Of a stretch of 64,000 nt of DNA, positions 9,992-17,987 are shown piece by piece. The notes under the pieces are model-generated. The model saw nothing but the letters and a program-made list of their open reading frames with translations. It made no database searches and had not been told where the DNA came from. The translations under genes and the position numbers were made by a program. The stretch is from UHGV virus genome UHGV-0218015; one strand, 5' to 3'. Every line of letters begins with the position of its first letter. The stretch's first letter is position 1. The DNA comes from a virus.

Positions 9992-10219
9992 TTAGTCTTT
10001 TTTGTAGACAATCGCGTTACCGTGCAGTTTGTTGTTGCCGGAAATACCGATAACTTTGAATGCGTCGCCGCCAATTTTTTCGGCTTCAGCAGCCAGTTTA
10101 CCAGTTACATGATCAACGGTATCGCCGAAAGCGCTAACGTTACCGATTTTCTTAAACTCTTCTGGAATATGCTCAGCAGAAGAGAACTCTTTAATAGACA
10201 TAACAGCTCTCCATTTCAA
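9992..10219 (-). CDS. DUF1471 (BhsA/YdgH/McbA-like) domain protein lacking a signal peptide
   Basis: C-terminal ...KIGNVSAFGDTVD...KLAAEAEKIGGDAFKVIGISGNNKLHGNAIVYKK matches from memory the enterobacterial BhsA/YcfR C-terminus (...ITSVTGPNTLHGTAVIYK); no hydrophobic leader at the N-terminus. Probable ATG start at about 10201. Confidence 0.7.
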   Translation of the reverse strand: MKWRAVMSIKEFSSAEHIPEEFKKIGNVSAFGDTVDHVTGKLAAEAEKIGGDAFKVIGISGNNKLHGNAIVYKKD

Positions 10220-10407: not shown

Positions 10408-11373
10408 TTATTGCGGAGGCGATGTCGGGCCATGTTTACCTTGGTGAATGTGAACGCTAAAGGTAATACCAGAAATAACGGCATCTTTAACCGTAAAGAC
10501 ACCGACGCCTTTGCCCGTACCACCGTATTTGAAGTTCTTAGCGACTTCCAGATTACCGGTGAACATCGCTTCCTTCCCTTCTTGTTTAAAGTTCGGCGTT
10601 TTAAATGTTGTCGAACTCCCTGCTTCCGTTAACCAGGTTTGTGTTTTAAACGTAACGGATTTCGCTGCTTCCGTATTGCGAACTTCGCATTTTTCATTAA
10701 TCGTTTTCGTTTCCAGGTTAATAGAACGCTTTGAATAAATGAACGCATCTTCTTTGTTGATGTTCACTTTTGAGAGCATCGCATTCTCAAAACCTAAATC
10801 GTCTTCCACCGAGTTAATGTAATACTTATTCCCTTTGTGGTCAACACACTGCCACGTGCCATTTGCATTATCAAACTGAAATAACCACGCCGCTTTCTCA
10901 CCGTTCACCATACTTGTTCTTAGCGTGATATGTTTGTCAATCGTCGAGATATTCAACACATACGCATTGGACAGGTCATCCGCCATCTGGTTTTCAGGGT
11001 CAGCAGACCACGCGTAAACCGCATCCTCTAATCGCTTAACGTTAGCGAAGTTCAGATCAATCCAAAAATAAATATCGGTTTTCCCCAAACGTAACAAGAT
11101 AACGTAATCTTCTCGTTTAACGTCAGGGGAATTAATTCGGTTGGAGTTAAACTTCCACCACTTTGCTGTTATCGTGTTACCCGTCTTAATGGTTAGGTTA
11201 TCTGTTGCACCAGACGTTTCATGCGTCTTTTCAGTTGCTGAAGAAACAGATTGCACCACGGTAGGGTTAGCAAAGTTGGTTTCAATTGGTATCACTTTTA
11301 CCCGATCTGTACCACGGGGTTTGTCTTCCGCGACGATACCAACTGAGAAAAAATCAACACTGGATTTCTCCAT
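10408..11373 (-). CDS. hypothetical protein (321 aa), possibly structural
   Basis: Complete minus-strand ORF downstream of the promoter-like region at about 11400; beta-rich, Thr/Asn-rich composition. Confidence 0.5.
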   Translation of the reverse strand: MEKSSVDFFSVGIVAEDKPRGTDRVKVIPIETNFANPTVVQSVSSATEKTHETSGATDNLTIKTGNTITAKWWKFNSNRINSPDVKREDYVILLRLGKTDIYFWIDLNFANVKRLEDAVYAWSADPENQMADDLSNAYVLNISTIDKHITLRTSMVNGEKAAWLFQFDNANGTWQCVDHKGNKYYINSVEDDLGFENAMLSKVNINKEDAFIYSKRSINLETKTINEKCEVRNTEAAKSVTFKTQTWLTEAGSSTTFKTPNFKQEGKEAMFTGNLEVAKNFKYGGTGKGVGVFTVKDAVISGITFSVHIHQGKHGPTSPPQ

Positions 11374-11393
11374 CGGGACGTTCCTTAGATCGG

Positions 11394-11425
11394 AATTGAT
11401 TTCAGATATATATTACTTAAGTGAA
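11394..11425 (+). promoter_or_regulatory. phage promoter-like motif TTTCAGATATATATTACTTAAGTGA
   Basis: 20-nt core identical to a second copy at about 15788-15812; contains TATATTAC, which I recall as the phiKZ early promoter consensus; sits in a divergent intergenic region. Confidence 0.45.
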
Positions 11426-11506
11426 TAGGGACTGAAGTACCAGTTCAGCCCCTACGGACACGTTTCATTCGAAACGGATTGATTAAACCATTTGGGGAGA
11501 CAGATC

Positions 11507-11587
11507 ATGTCTACTAAAAAGAAAGAAAGTCTCAATGAGCTGCTCAAACGGCTTAAAGACTACACTCCATTTAGTACCTTCCGATAA
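11507..11587 (+). CDS. possible 26-aa basic peptide (MSTKKKESLNELLKRLKDYTPFSTFR)
   Basis: ATG preceded by a GGGGAGA RBS-like sequence, downstream of the promoter-like motif; too short to be sure it is coding. Confidence 0.25.
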   Translation: MSTKKKESLNELLKRLKDYTPFSTFR

Positions 11588-11794
11588 CAGGTACTAAAAT
11601 TTTACAGTCTGCCCCTTTATTCTGCTACTCGGGATACCGGTAGGGGGTAGGGGGCATTATGTATACGGATATAAATAGCGGAGGTATACGTAGTATACCG
11701 ACATACTCTTCCCAGAGGAACGTAGTGACTTCCTTATACCTCTTTTACAATCCATAATAATAGACTTCCCTTTATTGAGATTAGCGAGTAAATC

Positions 11795-12532
11795 ATGAGA
11801 GAATTATTAGACGATATCTTTACTAACACCAGTTTAGAACTTTCTTCTACTGTTGTTAACGAACTAATAAAACAATACCAACCTGCTAAGTTAATCGATG
11901 CTGGAACAATTAAACCTGAAGATTATCCAGACAGTGACGTTATCGACTGTATGATTGACGAATACGTGATAGGCAGTTACGCCAACCGCGTCTTCTTCGT
12001 TATTAATACCGAAACCAGTGTCATGTTAATCTATAAGTTGATCAGTGATGCCGAACTTGAAGTTGTGGCTGACCACATTCGTCTTCTTGCGAACACGCCT
12101 ACTAGTATCGATGATGTGCTTATTGGGAACGGTTGGGCTTTACCACCACTATTCTCTTACTTCCCTCTGTTTAGAAATGGGATAGGGTTACTCCGAAATG
12201 CAGAAAACCTTCCCGATAACGTCGAGTTATCACTGCTTGGACCCGGCATCGATCTTTGTCCATTAGAAGACGAGGGCACGCTATATGGTTTGCGCATCTA
12301 TGTTTCTGTGTTAAAGGGTTACCGCGTTATTGAACTGATTGCATCCGACTTAGCAAAACAGATCCCAGATGTGGAAACGATTTCTAAAGCCACCCACCTG
12401 GTTGAGATTAACTCAGACGATCCCTTATTGAAATATCACGAGAAAATTGATCTTCGTAAAATCGCCACGATGAGAGGGTGGAGTTGTGCTGAGATTACGA
12501 AGGACTATCTGCTGTTAATTAAAACCGCGTAA
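11795..12532 (+). CDS. hypothetical protein, member 1 of tandem paralog family (C-terminal GW module)
   Basis: 245 aa; N-terminus M.ELLDDIF resembles 14367..15140; C-terminus RGWSCAEITKDYLLLIKTA resembles the GW...QLLF ends of the next three genes. Confidence 0.55.
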   Translation: MRELLDDIFTNTSLELSSTVVNELIKQYQPAKLIDAGTIKPEDYPDSDVIDCMIDEYVIGSYANRVFFVINTETSVMLIYKLISDAELEVVADHIRLLANTPTSIDDVLIGNGWALPPLFSYFPLFRNGIGLLRNAENLPDNVELSLLGPGIDLCPLEDEGTLYGLRIYVSVLKGYRVIELIASDLAKQIPDVETISKATHLVEINSDDPLLKYHEKIDLRKIATMRGWSCAEITKDYLLLIKTA

Positions 12533-12563
12533 TTAAGAAAACCGAAAAAAAGGAGAATATACC

Positions 12564-13118
12564 ATGTTTCAAACTGAACTGAAAAATGAAATTATCCAAA
12601 CCCTTGAAAAAGGCGTAGGCGAACATTTCTTTGTCCGTCCTTATACCGTACTGACCAATACCATTATCCAGCCAGGTGCGATGATAGTAGGGGTAAGTGT
12701 ACAAGCTGTAGAGGAAACCCCGCTGCGTCGTAACATCACACGTAAAACCCATATCCTGTTTAGAACAGGTTTTACAGATTACTTTCAGAGCTTACTGAAA
12801 GATAGCGTTTGGAAAACAGGCAGCTTCTTCCACGAAGGGAAGACTTCCACGCTGGTTTATAAAGAGAACACCAAGTATCTGGTTGATTTTCTCTTAGCGC
12901 GTCAATACGATTTCTTTCCAACCCCTACCGGCACCACCCATGATAATCCAGGTAAGTTATTAAACCAAGACGAAGCCGAAGCACTCTTTACAAAACTTCG
13001 GAACGAGCACTGTGATGTTGATGACTGGGAAACGCTGATTGCTGTCGCTAAAGCACACGGTTGGTATACCGTACGTAAAATCGGCCAGCAGTTATTATTC
13101 TTAGCTTACCCTGCTTAA
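12564..13118 (+). CDS. hypothetical protein, member 2 of tandem paralog family
   Basis: 184 aa; C-terminus ...AKAHGWYTVRKIGQQLLFLAYPA; strong RBS AAGGAG. Confidence 0.55.
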   Translation: MFQTELKNEIIQTLEKGVGEHFFVRPYTVLTNTIIQPGAMIVGVSVQAVEETPLRRNITRKTHILFRTGFTDYFQSLLKDSVWKTGSFFHEGKTSTLVYKENTKYLVDFLLARQYDFFPTPTGTTHDNPGKLLNQDEAEALFTKLRNEHCDVDDWETLIAVAKAHGWYTVRKIGQQLLFLAYPA

Positions 13119-13147
13119 GTAACGAAAAAACCTAAAGGAGAGTAAAA

Positions 13148-14299
13148 ATGCGAAATATTATTTCTAAACCAAGACGTGGCAAGTACCTAAAAGAACTGAT
13201 GGACAGATGCTATAATCGGACTTGGCCACTACCAAGCTTAACCCTCGACTATTTTTTACAACATACGTTGTTTGGTTATAAATTGGGCTGCTGTGTACTT
13301 AGTGAATACAATGAGATTATCGCGCCTGTCGATGTCTGTACTTTCGATGAAGAAATTGAAGGTTACCAGTTCACGTCTTACACAAATTGTGGACTAAATT
13401 ACCGTAAACTTGTTGTTAGGGAAAAGAGTAGCAATCGGGAGATTATGTTTAAGGTCTTCCCAAATGGTGAAGTCACTAAGTTATGTTTTCAGCTTGAACA
13501 AGTGCCCTTTCACGGTGTAGCTATTTTAACTAAACCAGAACTCGCGTTATTAAGCGAGTTAATCGGCTTTGAAGCAAAAACCATCAAAGTTGAGCAGGAG
13601 CTTACACAAAACGATTTCGGCTCAAGTTGGTACGAAAGTTTCTTCCGCTACGAAATATTAAGTGATAAAGCAATCAAGCTCACTTACCGTTCTACTGACG
13701 ATCTCGTTTACCACATTTTAATTAGCGGCGAACCCCACCTGATTATTGAAGACAAAGGAGAAAATCAAGTGTCTACCTTAAAAGATGAATTAACTGATTT
13801 TGTTAACAAAATTGATAACGTGGGTATCAGTGAATTATTGTTCCCGATACAGCATCCAGAGTTGCTTGACGAGAAATCTGAAAACGTGGTTATGGGCGTA
13901 CATTTACTTCCTGAACATCTTGCTATTTACCGTACAGTTTCTAAGAACCAACTTAAAGTGTGGTGTCTGTTAAAAGACCTTTTAACGGAGGCGGGATGGT
14001 CGTGTAGTGTAGATGCTAACTGTGAAGGAGTTGCGTTCATCGCCAGAATAGACAATCGTAATTTTTCTGTCGATTTACCTACTCGCAGCTATTACAGTTT
14101 CTTCCCGACTGCAGAAGGACGTACTGAAAAAGAGCCAGCATTACTCCTCAGTGCTGAGGAGTCCAATGCGTTAATGGCGAAACTAAAAGCGAAAGACGAG
14201 AAGCTGGATATTTTACATCTACCTATAATCGGAAAAGACTACGGTTGGGCGGACGTACAAAAGTACGGCTGCCAGCTGTTGTTTGTTGCTGACCTCTAA
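13148..14299 (+). CDS. hypothetical protein, member 3 of tandem paralog family
   Basis: 383 aa; C-terminus ...GKDYGWADVQKYGCQLLFVADL, plus an internal GWSC copy of the module. Confidence 0.55.
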   Translation: MRNIISKPRRGKYLKELMDRCYNRTWPLPSLTLDYFLQHTLFGYKLGCCVLSEYNEIIAPVDVCTFDEEIEGYQFTSYTNCGLNYRKLVVREKSSNREIMFKVFPNGEVTKLCFQLEQVPFHGVAILTKPELALLSELIGFEAKTIKVEQELTQNDFGSSWYESFFRYEILSDKAIKLTYRSTDDLVYHILISGEPHLIIEDKGENQVSTLKDELTDFVNKIDNVGISELLFPIQHPELLDEKSENVVMGVHLLPEHLAIYRTVSKNQLKVWCLLKDLLTEAGWSCSVDANCEGVAFIARIDNRNFSVDLPTRSYYSFFPTAEGRTEKEPALLLSAEESNALMAKLKAKDEKLDILHLPIIGKDYGWADVQKYGCQLLFVADL

Positions 14300-14366
14300 T
14301 AAGTAAAAATAGACTTTCTCTAACTGCCGCGCTTTAGTCGCGGCTTTTGTTAAGAGGGAAATAGAA

Positions 14367-15140
14367 ATGAAAATCCATCTAGATGATATCTTTAAAACCG
14401 AACCGTATTTGATCGAAGGTCCGCTAACATCACTACTATTCGCCGATAGATTAGATCGTACGTTGCAATTACAATCGATCGAATCTGCGCCCGTTGACGA
14501 TGTAGAGCGTTACGAGCGCATCAACTATACGCGGGGTGAGTATCGTCGCTATAAGCCGAATTCACTAAGCGTTAAACTTTGGAAAGTAAGCACAGGTAAG
14601 GTATTGACTTATCGCACCGTTGGTAGTTATTACATACAACAAGCCAAAGAATGGCTAGAGAAAGTTAAAGAACTGAACTTCGATCTACTGAGCAAAAAAC
14701 TGCGCGATCATAACGCCAGTTTACCGATACGTAATTATTTCTCCATGGTTGAAAATAGTCGTTGTTTTGTTTCTCGCGAATCCACGATATTACCTGGGAT
14801 TGATGTTCAGACGACGCTAAAAGATGTGGTTGTGAAAAAAGTCTTTCATGAGTCTGAACACGTTGGGTTTCGTATTTATTTAACCCACAAAAGACCATTT
14901 ACCGTGATTCATGTTGTTACCGTACCCGAAGGCTCAGCAGTCTCTCGGGAACTTCCTGATGCACGCGACCGTTGCCCCAACGAGCCGCTTTACTTAATGT
15001 CAGGAACAAAATCAACCGCGTTGATGTCTCGTTACAGCATGATAGATGTTGTTGACGCTGCTATGAAGCTAGGTTGGAAAGAAGTGCAGCAACACGGTAA
15101 ACAGTTGCTGTTTATTGCCGATGTAAAACTTAATTATTAG
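14367..15140 (+). CDS. hypothetical protein, member 4 of tandem paralog family
   Basis: 257 aa; C-terminus ...AMKLGWKEVQQHGKQLLFIADVKLNY; N-terminus MKIHLDDIF. Confidence 0.55.
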   Translation: MKIHLDDIFKTEPYLIEGPLTSLLFADRLDRTLQLQSIESAPVDDVERYERINYTRGEYRRYKPNSLSVKLWKVSTGKVLTYRTVGSYYIQQAKEWLEKVKELNFDLLSKKLRDHNASLPIRNYFSMVENSRCFVSRESTILPGIDVQTTLKDVVVKKVFHESEHVGFRIYLTHKRPFTVIHVVTVPEGSAVSRELPDARDRCPNEPLYLMSGTKSTALMSRYSMIDVVDAAMKLGWKEVQQHGKQLLFIADVKLNY

Positions 15141-15152
15141 TGAGGTGGAACC

Positions 15153-15731
15153 GTGTACCGATTAATAGAAATGCGAAAAGACGTTTGGTTAGAAAATCTC
15201 GTCGATGGGGAGCTTGAGGGAATAGAGCTTTCCTTACCAGAAAGAGCGGACACGGTATTAGCCTTTCTGATAAAGCGGGCAGCGAATGAACCTGTGGGGA
15301 TTTTCGACGTGGATTACAAAGATCCGCGCGGAATTCGTTTACGTAACATCTGTTGTGGTTTAGATAACTTGACGGCAAGTCCTTTCGTAAACTACGCAAA
15401 ACGTAAACTCCAGCCAGGGCAACATCTCTGGGTAGTTCTAGCGCCAGATATTCGCATTATGCGAGACGACCTGACTGCGTTTGTGCAAGCAACGAAAGTC
15501 AGTTTGTACAATCCTAATGCGGAACGTACCGATATGCCGTTTACAATCACCTTAGAAGACGATGGAACGCAAGAGGGCATTGAGGCGATTACGGAATTAG
15601 TAAACTCTTATCCGGTTGCATCTATCGAGTTAGAAAACCCAAACCGATTACCGTTGGGGGATTTACTCGAATGGATTGAGCTGAATACTGAGTTCCTCAT
15701 TAACTCCCGGCAGTATCGGTTCGATGTATAA
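15153..15731 (+). CDS. hypothetical protein (192 aa)
   Basis: Complete ORF with GTG start directly after the paralog cluster, followed by a terminator hairpin. Confidence 0.5.
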   Translation: MYRLIEMRKDVWLENLVDGELEGIELSLPERADTVLAFLIKRAANEPVGIFDVDYKDPRGIRLRNICCGLDNLTASPFVNYAKRKLQPGQHLWVVLAPDIRIMRDDLTAFVQATKVSLYNPNAERTDMPFTITLEDDGTQEGIEAITELVNSYPVASIELENPNRLPLGDLLEWIELNTEFLINSRQYRFDV

Positions 15732-15732
15732 C

Positions 15733-15768
15733 GTCGGTGGGGGTTTACCCCCACCTTTTATTTTTTGT
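15733..15768 (+). terminator. rho-independent terminator
   Basis: Hairpin GGTGGGGGT / ACCCCCACC followed by a T-rich run (TTTTATTTTTTG). Confidence 0.7.
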
Positions 15769-15785
15769 TCGTCAACATTAAAAAT

Positions 15786-15833
15786 AATTTCAGATATATA
15801 TTACTTAGGTGAGAGTTCAGTTACTCTCACTTA
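15786..15833 (+). promoter_or_regulatory. phage promoter-like motif TTTCAGATATATATTACTTAGGTGA with downstream stem-loop
   Basis: Second copy of the motif at 11394-11425; immediately followed by the inverted repeat GTGAGAGT..ACTCTCAC; about 48 nt upstream of the ATG at 15861. Confidence 0.45.
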
Positions 15834-15860
15834 ACGAAAACCATTTTAGGAGAACTAAAG

Positions 15861-16232
15861 ATGAAAAGCGAATTATTTAAAGACCCGTTTGTTGCATTAC
15901 TGATCGTTACACGCGCCGCCACTAACCCAGAAGACCTGAAACGTTTACTTACCAACGAAGCATACCTTCTCGAGCAACGTGACGTGCAGTTAGACAAACC
16001 ACACGCTGAAAGCCAGGTGAAAGACCTTATCTCTATTTTCCGTAACGAAGAATGGCGTAAAAACAACGAGCTGTCCGATAACCTGACGGTTTCGATTGCA
16101 AAACTCTTAACATTGTTCAATCTTGACAAAGACATTAATCAATGCCTTTCTACAGAAGAACGCCTGGAAATGATAAGAGGTATCGGAGATAGTTATACAC
16201 AGATTCAGGCATTACGCAACGCTCTCATTTAA
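15861..16232 (+). CDS. hypothetical protein (123 aa)
   Basis: ORF with AGGAG RBS, downstream of the promoter-like motif. Confidence 0.5.
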   Translation: MKSELFKDPFVALLIVTRAATNPEDLKRLLTNEAYLLEQRDVQLDKPHAESQVKDLISIFRNEEWRKNNELSDNLTVSIAKLLTLFNLDKDINQCLSTEERLEMIRGIGDSYTQIQALRNALI

Positions 16233-16263: not shown

Positions 16264-16662
16264 ATGGTGAAATCAATGAATATCAGAACAATACTTTATA
16301 CTATCATTATTTTCTGTGCGGCAGGCATCACCGCTACTTATGCTTTTGGGGAGTCAGATATCCACTACTACGACCCAGCACCAGACTCCCCAATTATTAA
16401 TCCTGATGAAACACCAACACTAATGCGAAGCTTCGGTAAACTAGAGGTGTACCGTCTGGTGCGTGCCGACGTGTGTACTGGTTTGATTATCGCCGATAGC
16501 AGTGCACATGTTTATCAGCGTCTAACCGATATTGCTTGCGAACAACCAAAAGTAATGTCGGTTAGCATACATCCGTTATCTGTTGGTAACTATACCGCTG
16601 TGGACTTCTTTCATAACGCCGAATTAATTGGCCGAGTTACTTTAAATCGTCCTGCTGAATAA
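16264..16662 (+). CDS. small secreted or membrane protein (signal peptide)
   Basis: N-terminal hydrophobic leader NIRTILYTIIIFCAAGITATYA; 132 aa. Confidence 0.5.
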   Translation: MVKSMNIRTILYTIIIFCAAGITATYAFGESDIHYYDPAPDSPIINPDETPTLMRSFGKLEVYRLVRADVCTGLIIADSSAHVYQRLTDIACEQPKVMSVSIHPLSVGNYTAVDFFHNAELIGRVTLNRPAE

Positions 16663-16680
16663 TCTAAAGGAGTAGTCACA

Positions 16681-17166
16681 ATGAAACGTTTACATACACT
16701 GATGTTCTTTCTGGTTTTCTTGTTTATCGGTGCCACACCTACTGTAGATGCGGCCCCCGTAGACGAATTACTTACCTGCGATGGGAACGCTCGGGAAGGT
16801 CAGCCAAATGCGTGTCCAAACATCAACGACTTGTACGATACCGATAAGTCATTTAAAGGTGTTGTTGATAAAACACTAGATCCGGTGGGACTGGATGGAA
16901 TGTTCGGCTCTAAAGGTTACATGGATGGCCCTGGCGGTAACATGTATCCGGTAAATATCAACAACAAAATCTGGATTGAAAGTGGTGGTTGTAAAGCTAA
17001 CGCTTGTGGCTGGGAATATATCGTAACGCTATACAACCCACACACCAAGAAACTCGTCGGTTATTATTACAACATCGACCCCGGTTATCTGATTTGGTTC
17101 GGCGAAATCGGCGTTGCTGAATTCGGTTATCTGGTTAAGAAGTACGTAGAACAATCTAAATACTAA
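16681..17166 (+). CDS. secreted cysteine-containing protein, possible Ivy-like fold
   Basis: Sec-type leader MKRLHTLMFFLVFLFIGATPTVDA; GGCKANAC loop reminiscent of the Ivy CKPHDC loop as I recall it; 161 aa. Confidence 0.4.
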   Translation: MKRLHTLMFFLVFLFIGATPTVDAAPVDELLTCDGNAREGQPNACPNINDLYDTDKSFKGVVDKTLDPVGLDGMFGSKGYMDGPGGNMYPVNINNKIWIESGGCKANACGWEYIVTLYNPHTKKLVGYYYNIDPGYLIWFGEIGVAEFGYLVKKYVEQSKY

Positions 17167-17176
17167 GGAGTTTATC

Positions 17177-17587
17177 ATGAAAACTATCATCAACACTCTT
17201 CTCATTGCAATTGCTATTCTGTTCTCTGTTAACGTATCAGCAAAAATAACACAGTTGCCAGCTGGAATTAAGTACGTCAATAGTACCGACGATTTCTACT
17301 GTACAGAAATTGACGGCCTGTACTGTCAGGCGAAGAGCCTGTTTAAATACAAAGGTAGCAGATACGTGTTCATCGTTGAGCAGGGCGGGGCCTGGTGCTA
17401 CGACAGCCCTATGTCCGTACTCAACCTCGAAACGTGGAAAGCACAGCGCCTTGAATACAACGACAAACGTTTGTGCTCTGGCAATAACAAACCATTCTTC
17501 GAAGTCGTAGATGGTGTACCGATGGTGGGGATATTAGACACTTCGGAAAAACCTATCGTTGTAGCTATGGATAAACTTAAAATTTAA
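17177..17587 (+). CDS. secreted cysteine-containing protein
   Basis: Leader MKTIINTLLIAIAILFSVNVSA; GG..C motif (EQGGAWCYD) shared with neighbours; 136 aa. Confidence 0.5.
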   Translation: MKTIINTLLIAIAILFSVNVSAKITQLPAGIKYVNSTDDFYCTEIDGLYCQAKSLFKYKGSRYVFIVEQGGAWCYDSPMSVLNLETWKAQRLEYNDKRLCSGNNKPFFEVVDGVPMVGILDTSEKPIVVAMDKLKI

Positions 17588-17597
17588 GGAGTAACTC

Positions 17598-17987
17598 ATG
17601 CGTCTCATCTGCGCTTTAGCATTCTTCTTCTCCCTGAGTGTAGCGGCATCTACCCAGGTTAATGATTTACTGCTAACCTCAAACAACAATACCGATTATC
17701 AGTACAATCCCCCGGGGTTTGAAGTTTGTGAAGTCGGTGAAACAATCTGCCAAGAAGTCGGCGCAGACGGGCGCTATATTCTGGTAAAAGCTGATGGTGG
17801 CACAATGTGTCCCGCAGGTTATTACTTTCTACTCGATTCCGTTGCAAGAGAGGTTCTTCCTATCACCACGAAAACGTGCGACCCTACTGTTGTCTTAACT
17901 CTCGCTAAAAGCAAATCTCGCGACCGTTATCTGATCGTTATCGAAGAACGGGGCAAGATGGCTGGCGCTATCGAATTAGATCATTGA
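17598..17987 (+). CDS. secreted cysteine-containing protein
   Basis: Leader MRLICALAFFFSLSVAAS; GG..C motif (ADGGTMCPAG); 129 aa. Confidence 0.5.
   Translation: MRLICALAFFFSLSVAASTQVNDLLLTSNNNTDYQYNPPGFEVCEVGETICQEVGADGRYILVKADGGTMCPAGYYFLLDSVAREVLPITTKTCDPTVVLTLAKSKSRDRYLIVIEERGKMAGAIELDH

What the first reader, a model, noticed from the sequence alone, without database searches (positions are those of the whole stretch)
11795..15140. Tandem array of four paralogous genes sharing a C-terminal GW...G.QLLF.A module with divergent N-terminal domains
Four consecutive plus-strand proteins (245, 184, 383, 257 aa) end with a related ~45-aa segment (..AL..KL...D.....A...GW..V...G.QLLF.AD); member 3 also carries an internal GWSC copy, and members 1 and 4 share an M..LLDDIF N-terminus. 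A conserved anchoring module with fast-diverging partner domains is the pattern seen in host-takeover and anti-defence families. Nothing in the sequence indicates the function.
Basis: seen in the sequence. Interest (0 to 1): 0.6.

Follow-up and report, generated by a model that had tools for sequence, protein, structure and literature searches.

The report
Hypervariable early gene array, jumbo phage
Four neighbouring genes of a giant enterobacterial phage share a small, previously undescribed protein domain attached to fast-changing partner regions and lie behind a predicted early promoter, which makes them good but unproven candidates for host-takeover or counter-defence factors.

Summary
The four ORFs exist exactly as described and are real paralogues, but the picture needs correction. 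The shared unit is a ~65-aa autonomous domain (beta-alpha-alpha-beta-beta; signature PDxxDR[ST]xNEPxYLMS...GWxxVxxxGxQLLF), not a 45-aa tail. An HMM built from unrelated phages recovers m4, m3 and m2 (E 8e-20 to 9e-13). m1 is a strongly diverged paralogue of m4 (profile-profile E 3e-4). The proposed internal copy in m3 is not supported. The domain matches no Pfam, NCBIfam, PDB or Rfam entry. It gives 60 hits (2 of them repeat-protein false positives) among 1.84 billion protein clusters, and every source identified is a jumbo phage of Enterobacterales or Shewanella. It occurs alone, C-terminal or N-terminal. The window is an SPN3US-like phage. m4 is the orthologue of the single gene SPN3US gp175; Machina has an independent three-gene array at the same site. 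The array follows a virion-RNA-polymerase early-promoter consensus and ends at a terminator. Seven related genomes keep all four genes under purifying selection, yet swap very divergent alleles (m3 43%, m2 N-region 32-37% identity where flanks are 91-99%). Best reading: an early accessory-gene hot spot encoding modular host- or competitor-interaction proteins. The function remains unknown.

The parts
11394..11424 (+). Predicted early (virion RNA polymerase) promoter upstream of the array: AATTGATTTCAGATATATATTACTTAAGTGA
   Evidence: Exact 20-mer found twice in 64 kb (expected 0.01). 31-nt direct repeat with 15782-15812. Matches the published early-promoter consensus of phiKZ-like phages (PMC7058600 Table 2; PMC7598289). 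The same motif lies upstream of the module gene in L006, Phobos, CR5 and L007.
11508..11588 (+). Small 26-aa ORF in the leader, with GGGGAG upstream. Poorly conserved, probably not essential.
   Evidence: Read from the sequence. Variable in sequence and deleted in L011.
11608..11735 (+). ~125-nt almost invariant leader element immediately upstream of m1. Predicted two-hairpin RNA of unknown role.
   Evidence: Only 3 variable positions in 7 genomes. RNA fold -47.8 kcal/mol, z -2.44. No Rfam or tRNA match. Single copy per genome and lineage-restricted.
11795..12532 (+). m1, 245 aa: strongly diverged full-length paralogue of m4. Degenerate module (GW and hairpin retained; the PD..YLMS motif replaced by IPxxETISKATHxVEIN).
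   Evidence: (m1-m4 E 5e-5). dN/dS 0.23 against L006. 84 allele clusters at 50-97% identity.
12564..13118 (+). m2, 184 aa: N-region of ~115 aa plus canonical module. Reciprocal best paralogue of m3.
   Evidence: (E 9e-13). N-region alleles at 32-37% identity in L006, L013, L014 and L015. Split into 55 + 102 aa ORFs in L006.
13148..14299 (+). m3, 383 aa: N-region of ~310 aa (10 Cys) plus canonical module. The fastest-evolving member.
   Evidence: E 7e-13. dN/dS 0.34. Alleles at 43% identity in L012 and L013. The N-region has only in-lineage orthologues.
14326..14344 (+). Terminator-like GC hairpin plus T-run between m3 and m4. A conserved cassette boundary.
   Evidence: The intergenic sequence is nearly invariant in all 7 genomes despite divergent m3 alleles.
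14367..15140 (+). m4, 257 aa: positional and sequence orthologue of the single-copy gene of other genera (SPN3US gp175, Phobos gp176, CR5_165, phiEaH2 gp097). Best-preserved module.
   Evidence: (E 8e-20). Module model pLDDT 88-95, beta-alpha-alpha-beta-beta. dN/dS 0.10.
15153..15731 (+). d5, 192 aa: last gene of the transcription unit (phrog_20879, homologue of SPN3US gp177). It has no module and is not a family member.
15736..15755 (+). Strong intrinsic-terminator-like hairpin (8 pairs, 7 GC, T-run) closing the unit.
   Evidence: Conserved in L011 and L012.
15782..15812 (+). Second copy of the early-promoter consensus, starting the next unit.
   Evidence: The only stretch of the 5-kb query with a megablast match (85-100% over 41-60 nt) to SPN3US- and phiEaH2-like phages.

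Best explanation
The four genes are a lineage-specific tandem expansion of one ancestral early gene (the orthologue of SPN3US gp175) in an SPN3US-like jumbo phage of Salmonella, E. coli and Shigella.

Each gene encodes a soluble two-part protein. One part is a rapidly diversifying N-terminal region. The other is a ~65-aa autonomous alpha/beta domain (beta-alpha-alpha-beta-beta, here called PD-GW-QLLF). This domain was found only in jumbo phages, wherever the source could be identified.

Shown:
- The paralogy and the domain boundaries.
- The confident fold prediction for the module.
- The absence of any characterised relative.
- The conserved synteny.
- Retention of all four genes under purifying selection in seven genomes.
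- Replacement of individual members by very divergent alleles between conserved intergenic boundaries.
- An independent three-gene expansion at the same site in Machina.

Inferred from the promoter consensus and terminators: the array (with d5) is transcribed right after DNA injection by the virion RNA polymerase.

Inferred mechanism: the domain is a protein-binding unit. Its most constrained surface is the extended PDxxDR[ST]xNEPxYLMS segment plus the first strand, and this surface engages a conserved partner. The variable regions supply different specificities toward diversifying host targets (defence or takeover) or competing-phage targets. Having four paralogues and many alleles broadens that repertoire. 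m1, which carries a different but equally constrained motif in the same segment, has probably switched partner.
For: - Paralogy and module.
- Autonomous domain: stand-alone 72-100 aa proteins, and N-terminal placement in P0054, P0063 and PhiEaH1 gp105.
- Fold: pLDDT 88-95 for the module.
- Restricted distribution: 60 hits (2 of them repeat-protein false positives) among 1.84e9 representatives. Phage hits are all 218-307 kb genomes.
- Synteny and orthology of m4.
- Early unit: promoter consensus and terminators.
- Real genes under constraint: dN/dS 0.10-0.34.
- Array conserved in 7 genomes.
- Hot-spot and mosaic alleles.
- Conserved cassette boundaries.
- Recurrent expansion in Machina.
- Not strongly basic: module pI 4.9-8.1.
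- Most conserved part of m1 coincides with the motif segment.
Against: - No experiment and no annotated homologue links the domain to any activity or partner.
- Early timing rests on a consensus motif. About 370 nt with a conserved structured element separate the promoter from m1. SPN3US and Machina lack the motif directly upstream of their first module gene.
- dN/dS is below 1 everywhere, so positive selection is not demonstrated. Allele divergence could reflect old balanced or recombined lineages.
- The full-length model is poor (pLDDT 56), so nothing is known about the N-regions.
- The locus neighbours tail and baseplate genes.
Confidence: 0.5

Rival explanations
1. The module is a winged-helix-like nucleic-acid-binding domain, and the proteins are early transcription or replication regulators (for example of the early-to-middle switch). 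The variable N-regions would act as effector or oligomerisation parts.
Against: None of those matches is significant. Modules are near-neutral or acidic (pI 4.9-8.1). The conserved residues are P, D, N, S, G, W, Q and L rather than basic ones. The loop between the two helices varies by 0-40 residues across the family, which is incompatible with a fixed helix-turn-helix geometry. A regulator would not be expected to need four paralogues with hypervariable alleles.
Confidence: 0.12
2. The proteins are virion-associated: tail-fibre or baseplate accessory proteins or their assembly chaperones. The conserved module would be the attachment piece and the variable regions would determine host range.
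For: The array lies next to a baseplate assembly gene and large virion structural genes. Mosaic, cassette-like allelic variation with conserved boundaries is typical of receptor-binding loci. SPN3US gp168 and gp171 nearby are tail proteins (PMC5105663).
Against: The array is on the opposite strand from the baseplate gene, behind an early-promoter consensus. It has no PHROG structural hits. Homologues are annotated 'hypothetical' while their neighbours carry 'virion structural protein' labels. SPN3US gp175 is never mentioned in the SPN3US virion proteome papers read. Stand-alone copies sit in a tRNA cluster (FBKp24) or among nucleotide-metabolism genes (PhiEaH1). The proteins are small with mixed alpha/beta predictions, not fibre-like.
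Confidence: 0.1
3. The array serves competition between co-infecting related jumbo phages (exclusion or incompatibility factors) rather than interaction with the host. This is a variant of the best explanation with a different target.
For: The lineage is abundant and very polymorphic in the same samples: 84 m1 clusters, and several variants within IMG/VR sample 3300045988. Alleles are exchanged among genomes with 91-99% identical flanks. Interference between related chimalliviruses is documented (own knowledge).
Against: There is no direct evidence. The same data fit host-directed functions, and the module family spans distant genera with different hosts.
Confidence: 0.15
4. The C-terminal QLLF[IV] acts as a sliding-clamp-binding peptide, so the proteins dock on the host DnaN clamp to arrest or hijack host replication.
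For: The motif begins with an almost invariant Q followed by hydrophobic residues and often ends the protein (QLLFIS* in Phobos and CR5). This is reminiscent of the QL[SD]LF clamp-binding consensus (own knowledge).
Against: It does not fit the consensus spacing. In the confident model it is the last beta-strand of the folded sheet, not a free peptide. It is internal in proteins that carry the module at the N-terminus. m1 has YLLLIK instead.
Confidence: 0.04

Closest known systems
Salmonella phage SPN3US gp175 (SPN3US_0175 / YP_009153469) and its positional homologues Phobos gp176, CR5_165, phiEaH2 gp097 and Machina gp185-187
   Same: The same C-terminal domain (36-43% identity to m4; E 1e-9 to 1e-13). 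The same position after the divergently transcribed baseplate gene. In Phobos, CR5 and L007, the same early-promoter motif upstream. Unrelated N-regions of different length.
   Different: These are single genes (three in Machina), against four here. No function or expression data were found for any of them.
PHROGs phrog_26772, phrog_33648, phrog_24489 and phrog_18480 (all 'unknown function')
   Same: m3 and m4 match the last ~65 positions of each of these profiles (E 2.5e-9 to 5e-3).
   Different: PHROGs splits the family by its N-regions and does not recognise the shared domain. m1 and m2 match none of them at E<=0.1.
Phage accessory regions / hot spots of fast-evolving early genes flanked by conserved genes (for example the concept in bioRxiv 10.1101/2023.04.06.535777)
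   Same: Variable gene content and very divergent alleles between conserved flanks. Uncharacterised small proteins. Predicted early expression.
   Different: Here the variable genes are all paralogues built on one conserved domain. No counter-defence activity has been shown.
Polymorphic modular effectors (polymorphic toxins; tail-fibre cassettes)
   Same: One conserved module joined to many unrelated, exchangeable partner regions. Recombination occurs at conserved boundaries.
   Different: The conserved part is usually C-terminal here and also exists alone. There are no toxin, immunity or fibre domains, no secretion signal, and the proteins are predicted to be cytoplasmic and early.

Membership tests
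PD-GW-QLLF domain family (undescribed; defined here) | Significant match to a module HMM built from members outside this phage lineage | tested here: met
   m4 8e-20, m3 7e-13, m2 9e-13. For m1 alone the test is not met (E 0.45). m1 is tied in only by profile-profile comparison (E 3e-4).
PD-GW-QLLF domain family (undescribed; defined here) | Signature PDxxDR[ST]xN[DE]PxYLMS ... GWxxVxxxGxQLLF and a beta-alpha-alpha-beta-beta fold | tested here: met
   Alignments; model pLDDT 88-95. m2 and m3 have relaxed versions of the first motif. m1 keeps only the P, the GW and the hairpin.
Orthologue of SPN3US gp175 | Same genomic position plus closest sequence relationship | tested here: met
   m4 lies next to d5 (= gp177 homologue). 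Its module is closest to the single-copy genes of other genera (about 43% identity). m1 to m3 are extra copies.
Any Pfam / NCBIfam / PADLOC family | Score above the curated threshold | tested here: not met
   No hit approaches a cut-off for m1-m4, for 38 family members or for stand-alone members.
Winged helix-turn-helix DNA-binding domains | Significant structural match and a basic recognition surface | tested here: not met
Sliding-clamp-binding proteins | Accessible QL[SD]LF / QLxLxL peptide | tested here: not met
   The sequence is QLLF[IV][AS], and it forms a strand within the folded domain. Binding itself was not tested.
Tail fibre / virion structural proteins | Presence in virions and late expression | tested here: inconclusive
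   Early-promoter consensus upstream. No structural PHROG match. Not named in the virion proteome papers read. The supplementary proteome tables were not examined.
Early genes of RNAP-encoding jumbo phages | Conserved AT-rich vRNAP promoter motif upstream of the operon | tested here: met
   TTTCAGATATATATTACTTAAGTGA at 11400 fits the published consensus. Actual transcription timing cannot be tested with these tools.
Known anti-defence protein families | Homology to a characterised anti-defence protein, or a demonstrated activity | not testable with these tools
   No anti-defence library is available. Pfam, PHROGs and PDB give nothing.

The most novel reading that the evidence does not exclude
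The PD-GW-QLLF domain is a dedicated docking adaptor of jumbo phages. It would bind one conserved hub very early in infection: an essential host machine, or a phage structure such as the early-infection vesicle or the nuclear shell. It would thereby deliver interchangeable N-terminal 'warheads' or decoys, giving a new modular class of takeover or counter-defence effectors. Tandem arrays and allele swapping would record an ongoing arms race. m1 would be a retargeted derivative.
Probability: 0.2. Interest if true: 0.75.

Novelty: new variant of a known kind. Interest (0 to 1): 0.45.

Why it matters
Most genes of nucleus-forming and other jumbo phages have no known function, and the early genes that disarm or take over the host are the least understood. 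This locus offers three things:
- a compact, well-delimited new domain with a clear signature;
- natural 'experiments', namely stand-alone, fused, single-copy, triplicated and quadruplicated versions, and dozens of alleles in a widespread Salmonella/E. coli/Shigella phage lineage;
- a tractable model relative (SPN3US gp175).

Finding the domain's partner would assign a role to a whole family and might reveal a new takeover or counter-defence strategy. If it turns out to be dispensable or structural, the interest is modest.

Tried and rejected
- Internal second module copy in m3: rejected (HMM score -3.3).
- Common origin of the N-regions across the family: no support (BLAST clusters; 36 hhalign pairs, none significant after correction). 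The exception is the m1/m4 pair.
- Known-domain searches (Pfam, PHROG function, NCBIfam, PADLOC, PDB sequence): nothing.
- Full-length m4 model: too poor to use.
- Homing-endonuclease idea (sporadic distribution, tRNA-cluster copy): no nuclease domain in any member.
- DNA repeats between paralogues as recombination substrates: none beyond the promoter duplicate.
- Literature on 'gp175': all hits concern phiKZ protease or PhiPA3 RecA, not SPN3US gp175. Accession searches were empty.
- Attempt to trace the three BFVD hits of Erwinia phage Wellington: P0018 turned out to be from Salmonella phage SPAsTU. Not pursued.
- Whether PhiEaH1 and FBKp24 are nucleus-forming: no literature hit. Left open.
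- The search for related loci with the alignment failed. The single-protein query worked.
Full report
**1. What is there**

The region holds four consecutive + strand ORFs exactly as described: m1 11795-12532 (245 aa), m2 12564-13118 (184 aa), m3 13148-14299 (383 aa) and m4 14367-15140 (257 aa). The unrelated 192-aa gene d5 follows. m2, m3 and m4 have good Shine-Dalgarno sequences; that of m1 is weaker.

Compared with the orthologues in a related contig (L006, about 84% nucleotide identity), dN/dS is 0.23 for m1, 0.34 for m3 and 0.10 for m4. For flanking genes it is 0.04-0.10. These are genuine protein-coding genes under purifying selection.

**2. Is the similarity real?**

Pairwise BLASTP gives m2-m3 4e-14 over 108 aa, m3-m4 1e-9 over 65 aa, m2-m4 3e-4, and m1-m4 5e-5 over 131 aa.

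To avoid circularity I built an HMM from 50 module sequences of other phages and searched all 396 stop-to-stop segments of the window:
- m4 scored 8e-20, m3 7e-13 and m2 9e-13.
- m1 was the next segment but not significant (E 0.45).
- The proposed internal 'GWSC' copy in m3 scored -3.3 bits.

A 46-sequence m1 profile aligns to the module profile only over the last 26 columns (second helix, GW, hairpin; E 3e-4). It aligns to the m4 family collinearly over 157 columns (E 3.4e-4). So m1 is a strongly diverged full-length paralogue of m4. This also explains the shared M..LDDIF start.

It is about 65 aa, beginning with PDxxDR[ST]xNEPxYLMS and ending with GWxxVxxxGxQLLF. In m2 and m3 the similarity extends about 40 aa further upstream.

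**3. The domain**

AlphaFold2 on the last 110 residues of m4, with a 10-sequence alignment, gives pLDDT 88-95 for residues 45-105. The order is an extended segment, strand, two helices and a beta-hairpin.

It matches nothing characterised:
- Sequence libraries: Pfam, NCBIfam, PADLOC and PDB sequences.
- PHROGs: the module matches only the C-terminal ends of four different 'unknown function' families.

An exhaustive HMM search of 1.84 billion cluster representatives found only 60 hits, two of them repeat-protein false positives.

The domain sits at the C-terminus of proteins of 129-534 aa. It also makes up the whole of 72-130-aa proteins, and it is N-terminal in P0054, P0063 and PhiEaH1 gp105. 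It is therefore an autonomous, mobile domain rather than just a tail.

The partner regions fall into about 21 BLAST-unrelated clusters. They show no significant profile-profile similarity. No Pfam domain is found in any of 38 members.

**4. Genomic context**

The window has no close DNA relative in the phage collection, but it is syntenic with SPN3US, phiEaH2, Phobos/CR5 and Machina. The shared order is: large virion proteins, a 420-aa protein, a small DUF1471 gene, and a baseplate gene on the minus strand, followed by a plus-strand block.

Those phages carry the module gene as the first or second gene of that block: SPN3US gp175 (412 aa), phiEaH2 gp097 (223 aa), Phobos gp176 (319 aa) and CR5_165 (364 aa). 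m4 is their orthologue by position (next to d5, the gp177 homologue) and by sequence (about 43% module identity). m2 and m3 are reciprocal best paralogues.

Re-scanning neighbours with the HMM showed that Machina has three tandem members, gp185, gp186 and gp187 (E 2e-23, 5e-10, 2e-8). gp186 and gp187 are closest to each other. Tandem expansion at this site has therefore happened at least twice.

More distant carriers are PhiEaH1, Klebsiella FBKp24 (a stand-alone copy inside the tRNA cluster), about 300-kb Serratia/Klebsiella phages and Shewanella SXP01. All are 218-307 kb genomes.

**5. Expression signals**

The string TTTCAGATATATATTACTTA occurs exactly twice in 64 kb (expected 0.01): at 11400 upstream of m1 and at 15788 after d5. 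It fits the early-promoter consensus reported for phiKZ-like phages (N1M2, OBP, 201phi2-1, phiKZ TATATTAC; PMC7058600). In these phages the motif marks operons transcribed by the injected virion RNA polymerase (PMC7598289).

The same motif lies upstream of the module gene in L006, Phobos, CR5 and L007. It was not found within two mismatches in front of SPN3US gp174/175 or Machina gp185.

A strong terminator-like hairpin follows d5 (15736-15755), and a weaker one separates m3 from m4.

The likely unit is therefore: early promoter, a 370-nt leader, m1-m4, d5, terminator. Early timing is an inference from the consensus, not a measurement.

**6. Population variation**

Seven genomes of this lineage (the window, L006 and IMG/VR L011-L015; about 221-225 kb) all keep the four genes in the same order. 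Identities are strongly mosaic:
- L012 is about 99% identical to the window in flanking proteins and in m1, but only 43% in m3.
- L006, L013, L014 and L015 are 91-95% in the flanks but 42-45% in m2.
- L011 is 98% in the flanks but 72% in m1.

Split by domain, the N-regions of divergent m2 and m3 alleles are 32-38% identical, while the modules are 60-69%.

The m3-m4 spacer and a 125-nt leader element are almost invariant. Variable cassettes therefore sit between conserved boundaries.

m1 alone has 84 clusters at 90% identity, spanning 50-97% identity. They lie on 222-227-kb contigs from Salmonella, E. coli and Shigella assemblies and from metagenomes. The m3 N-region has only in-lineage orthologues.

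This is the behaviour of an accessory-gene hot spot. Positive selection was not demonstrated.

**7. Mechanism**

*Shown.* This is a conserved autonomous domain joined to exchangeable, fast-diverging regions. The genes are retained and duplicated, and a promoter consensus lies upstream.

*Inferred.* The domain binds a conserved partner. The most constrained part of canonical members is the PDxxDR[ST]xNEPxYLMS segment. In m1 the most conserved stretch (residues 181-210) occupies the same place with a different motif. This suggests that the segment is the functional surface and that m1 has been retargeted.

The modules are near-neutral (pI 4.9-8.1), and the inter-helix loop varies by 0-40 residues. 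Both argue against a classical DNA-binding winged helix.

The QLLF ending resembles a clamp-binding peptide only superficially, and it forms a strand of the fold.

The structural/tail-fibre rival is weakened by strand, promoter, annotation and the non-structural contexts of distant copies. It is not excluded.

I put about 0.5 on early host-directed or competitor-directed modular binding proteins. The remainder is split among the rivals and the unknown.

**8. Novelty and verdict**

No paper in the searchable library mentions SPN3US gp175 or its accessions.

The domain appears to be undescribed, and PHROGs does not unite its members. The overall pattern, a paralogous and hypervariable early gene family in a large phage, is familiar. 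I therefore rate it a new variant of a known kind with moderate interest (0.45). It is a well-defined, experimentally accessible candidate, but there is no functional evidence yet.

Noticed in passing
window 11608-11735 (+): An ~125-nt non-coding element in the leader before m1 is almost invariant: 3 variable positions in 7 genomes whose coding DNA is about 84% identical. It folds into two hairpins (dG -47.8 kcal/mol, z -2.4). It has no Rfam or tRNA match, occurs once per genome, and is found only in this lineage. It contains a TATG core like phiKZ late promoters. Its role is unknown (translational control, RNA stability, a second promoter, or a recombination anchor).
   Followed up: partly
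window 15782-15812 and 11394-11424: A 31-nt direct repeat carries the jumbo-phage early-promoter consensus. The downstream copy is the only part of the 5-kb query (window 11000-16000) with a megablast match to SPN3US- and phiEaH2-like phages (85-100% over 41-60 nt). The promoter is thus far more conserved than any gene in that stretch.
   Followed up: yes
window 16264-17987 (+): Four consecutive small proteins (132, 161, 136 and 129 aa) each have an N-terminal signal-peptide-like hydrophobic segment. Three match SPN3US gp180, gp182 and gp183 by BLASTP; the 161-aa one has no BLASTP match but occupies the position of gp181. In SPN3US, gp181 is weakly paralogous to gp182 and gp183. They form a cluster of secreted or periplasmic early proteins of unknown function, and the 161-aa one is also highly variable between relatives (48-97% identity).
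   Followed up: partly
window 15861-16232 (+); L006 11052-11513: The first gene after the second early promoter (d6, 123 aa; phrog_27024; weak T4 y05I-like N-terminal hit, E 0.04) is present only in L011 among six relatives. In L006 a 153-aa YfjT-domain protein (PF27224) takes its place. This is a second variable slot.
   Followed up: no
L006 7770-8309: In the relative L006, m2 is represented by two ORFs (55 + 102 aa) instead of one of 184 aa. Its N-terminal DNA does not align with the window. This could be a different allele with a frameshift, a pseudogene, or an assembly error.
   Followed up: no
window 11795-12532 versus L006 7005-7742: m1 has much lower synonymous divergence from L006 (dS 0.11) than neighbouring genes do (0.4-0.85). 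This indicates a recent recombinational exchange of this cassette.
   Followed up: partly
L010 (Erwinia phage Machina) 4485-6541: Three tandem module-bearing genes (gp185-187) sit at the syntenic site. An early-promoter motif lies between gp185 and gp186. tblastn had detected only gp185.
   Followed up: yes
whole window: The phage lineage (about 222-227 kb, SPN3US-like gene order) has no close relative in the phage collection searched. It is nevertheless common on large contigs in assemblies labelled Salmonella enterica, E. coli and Shigella, and in metagenomes. It may be an unrecognised genus that persists in isolate cultures.
   Followed up: partly
window 9992-10201 (-): A small DUF1471 (YdgH/BhsA-like) gene, from a family of enterobacterial periplasmic stress proteins, is embedded between virion and baseplate genes. 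It is conserved at this position in all relatives examined.
   Followed up: no
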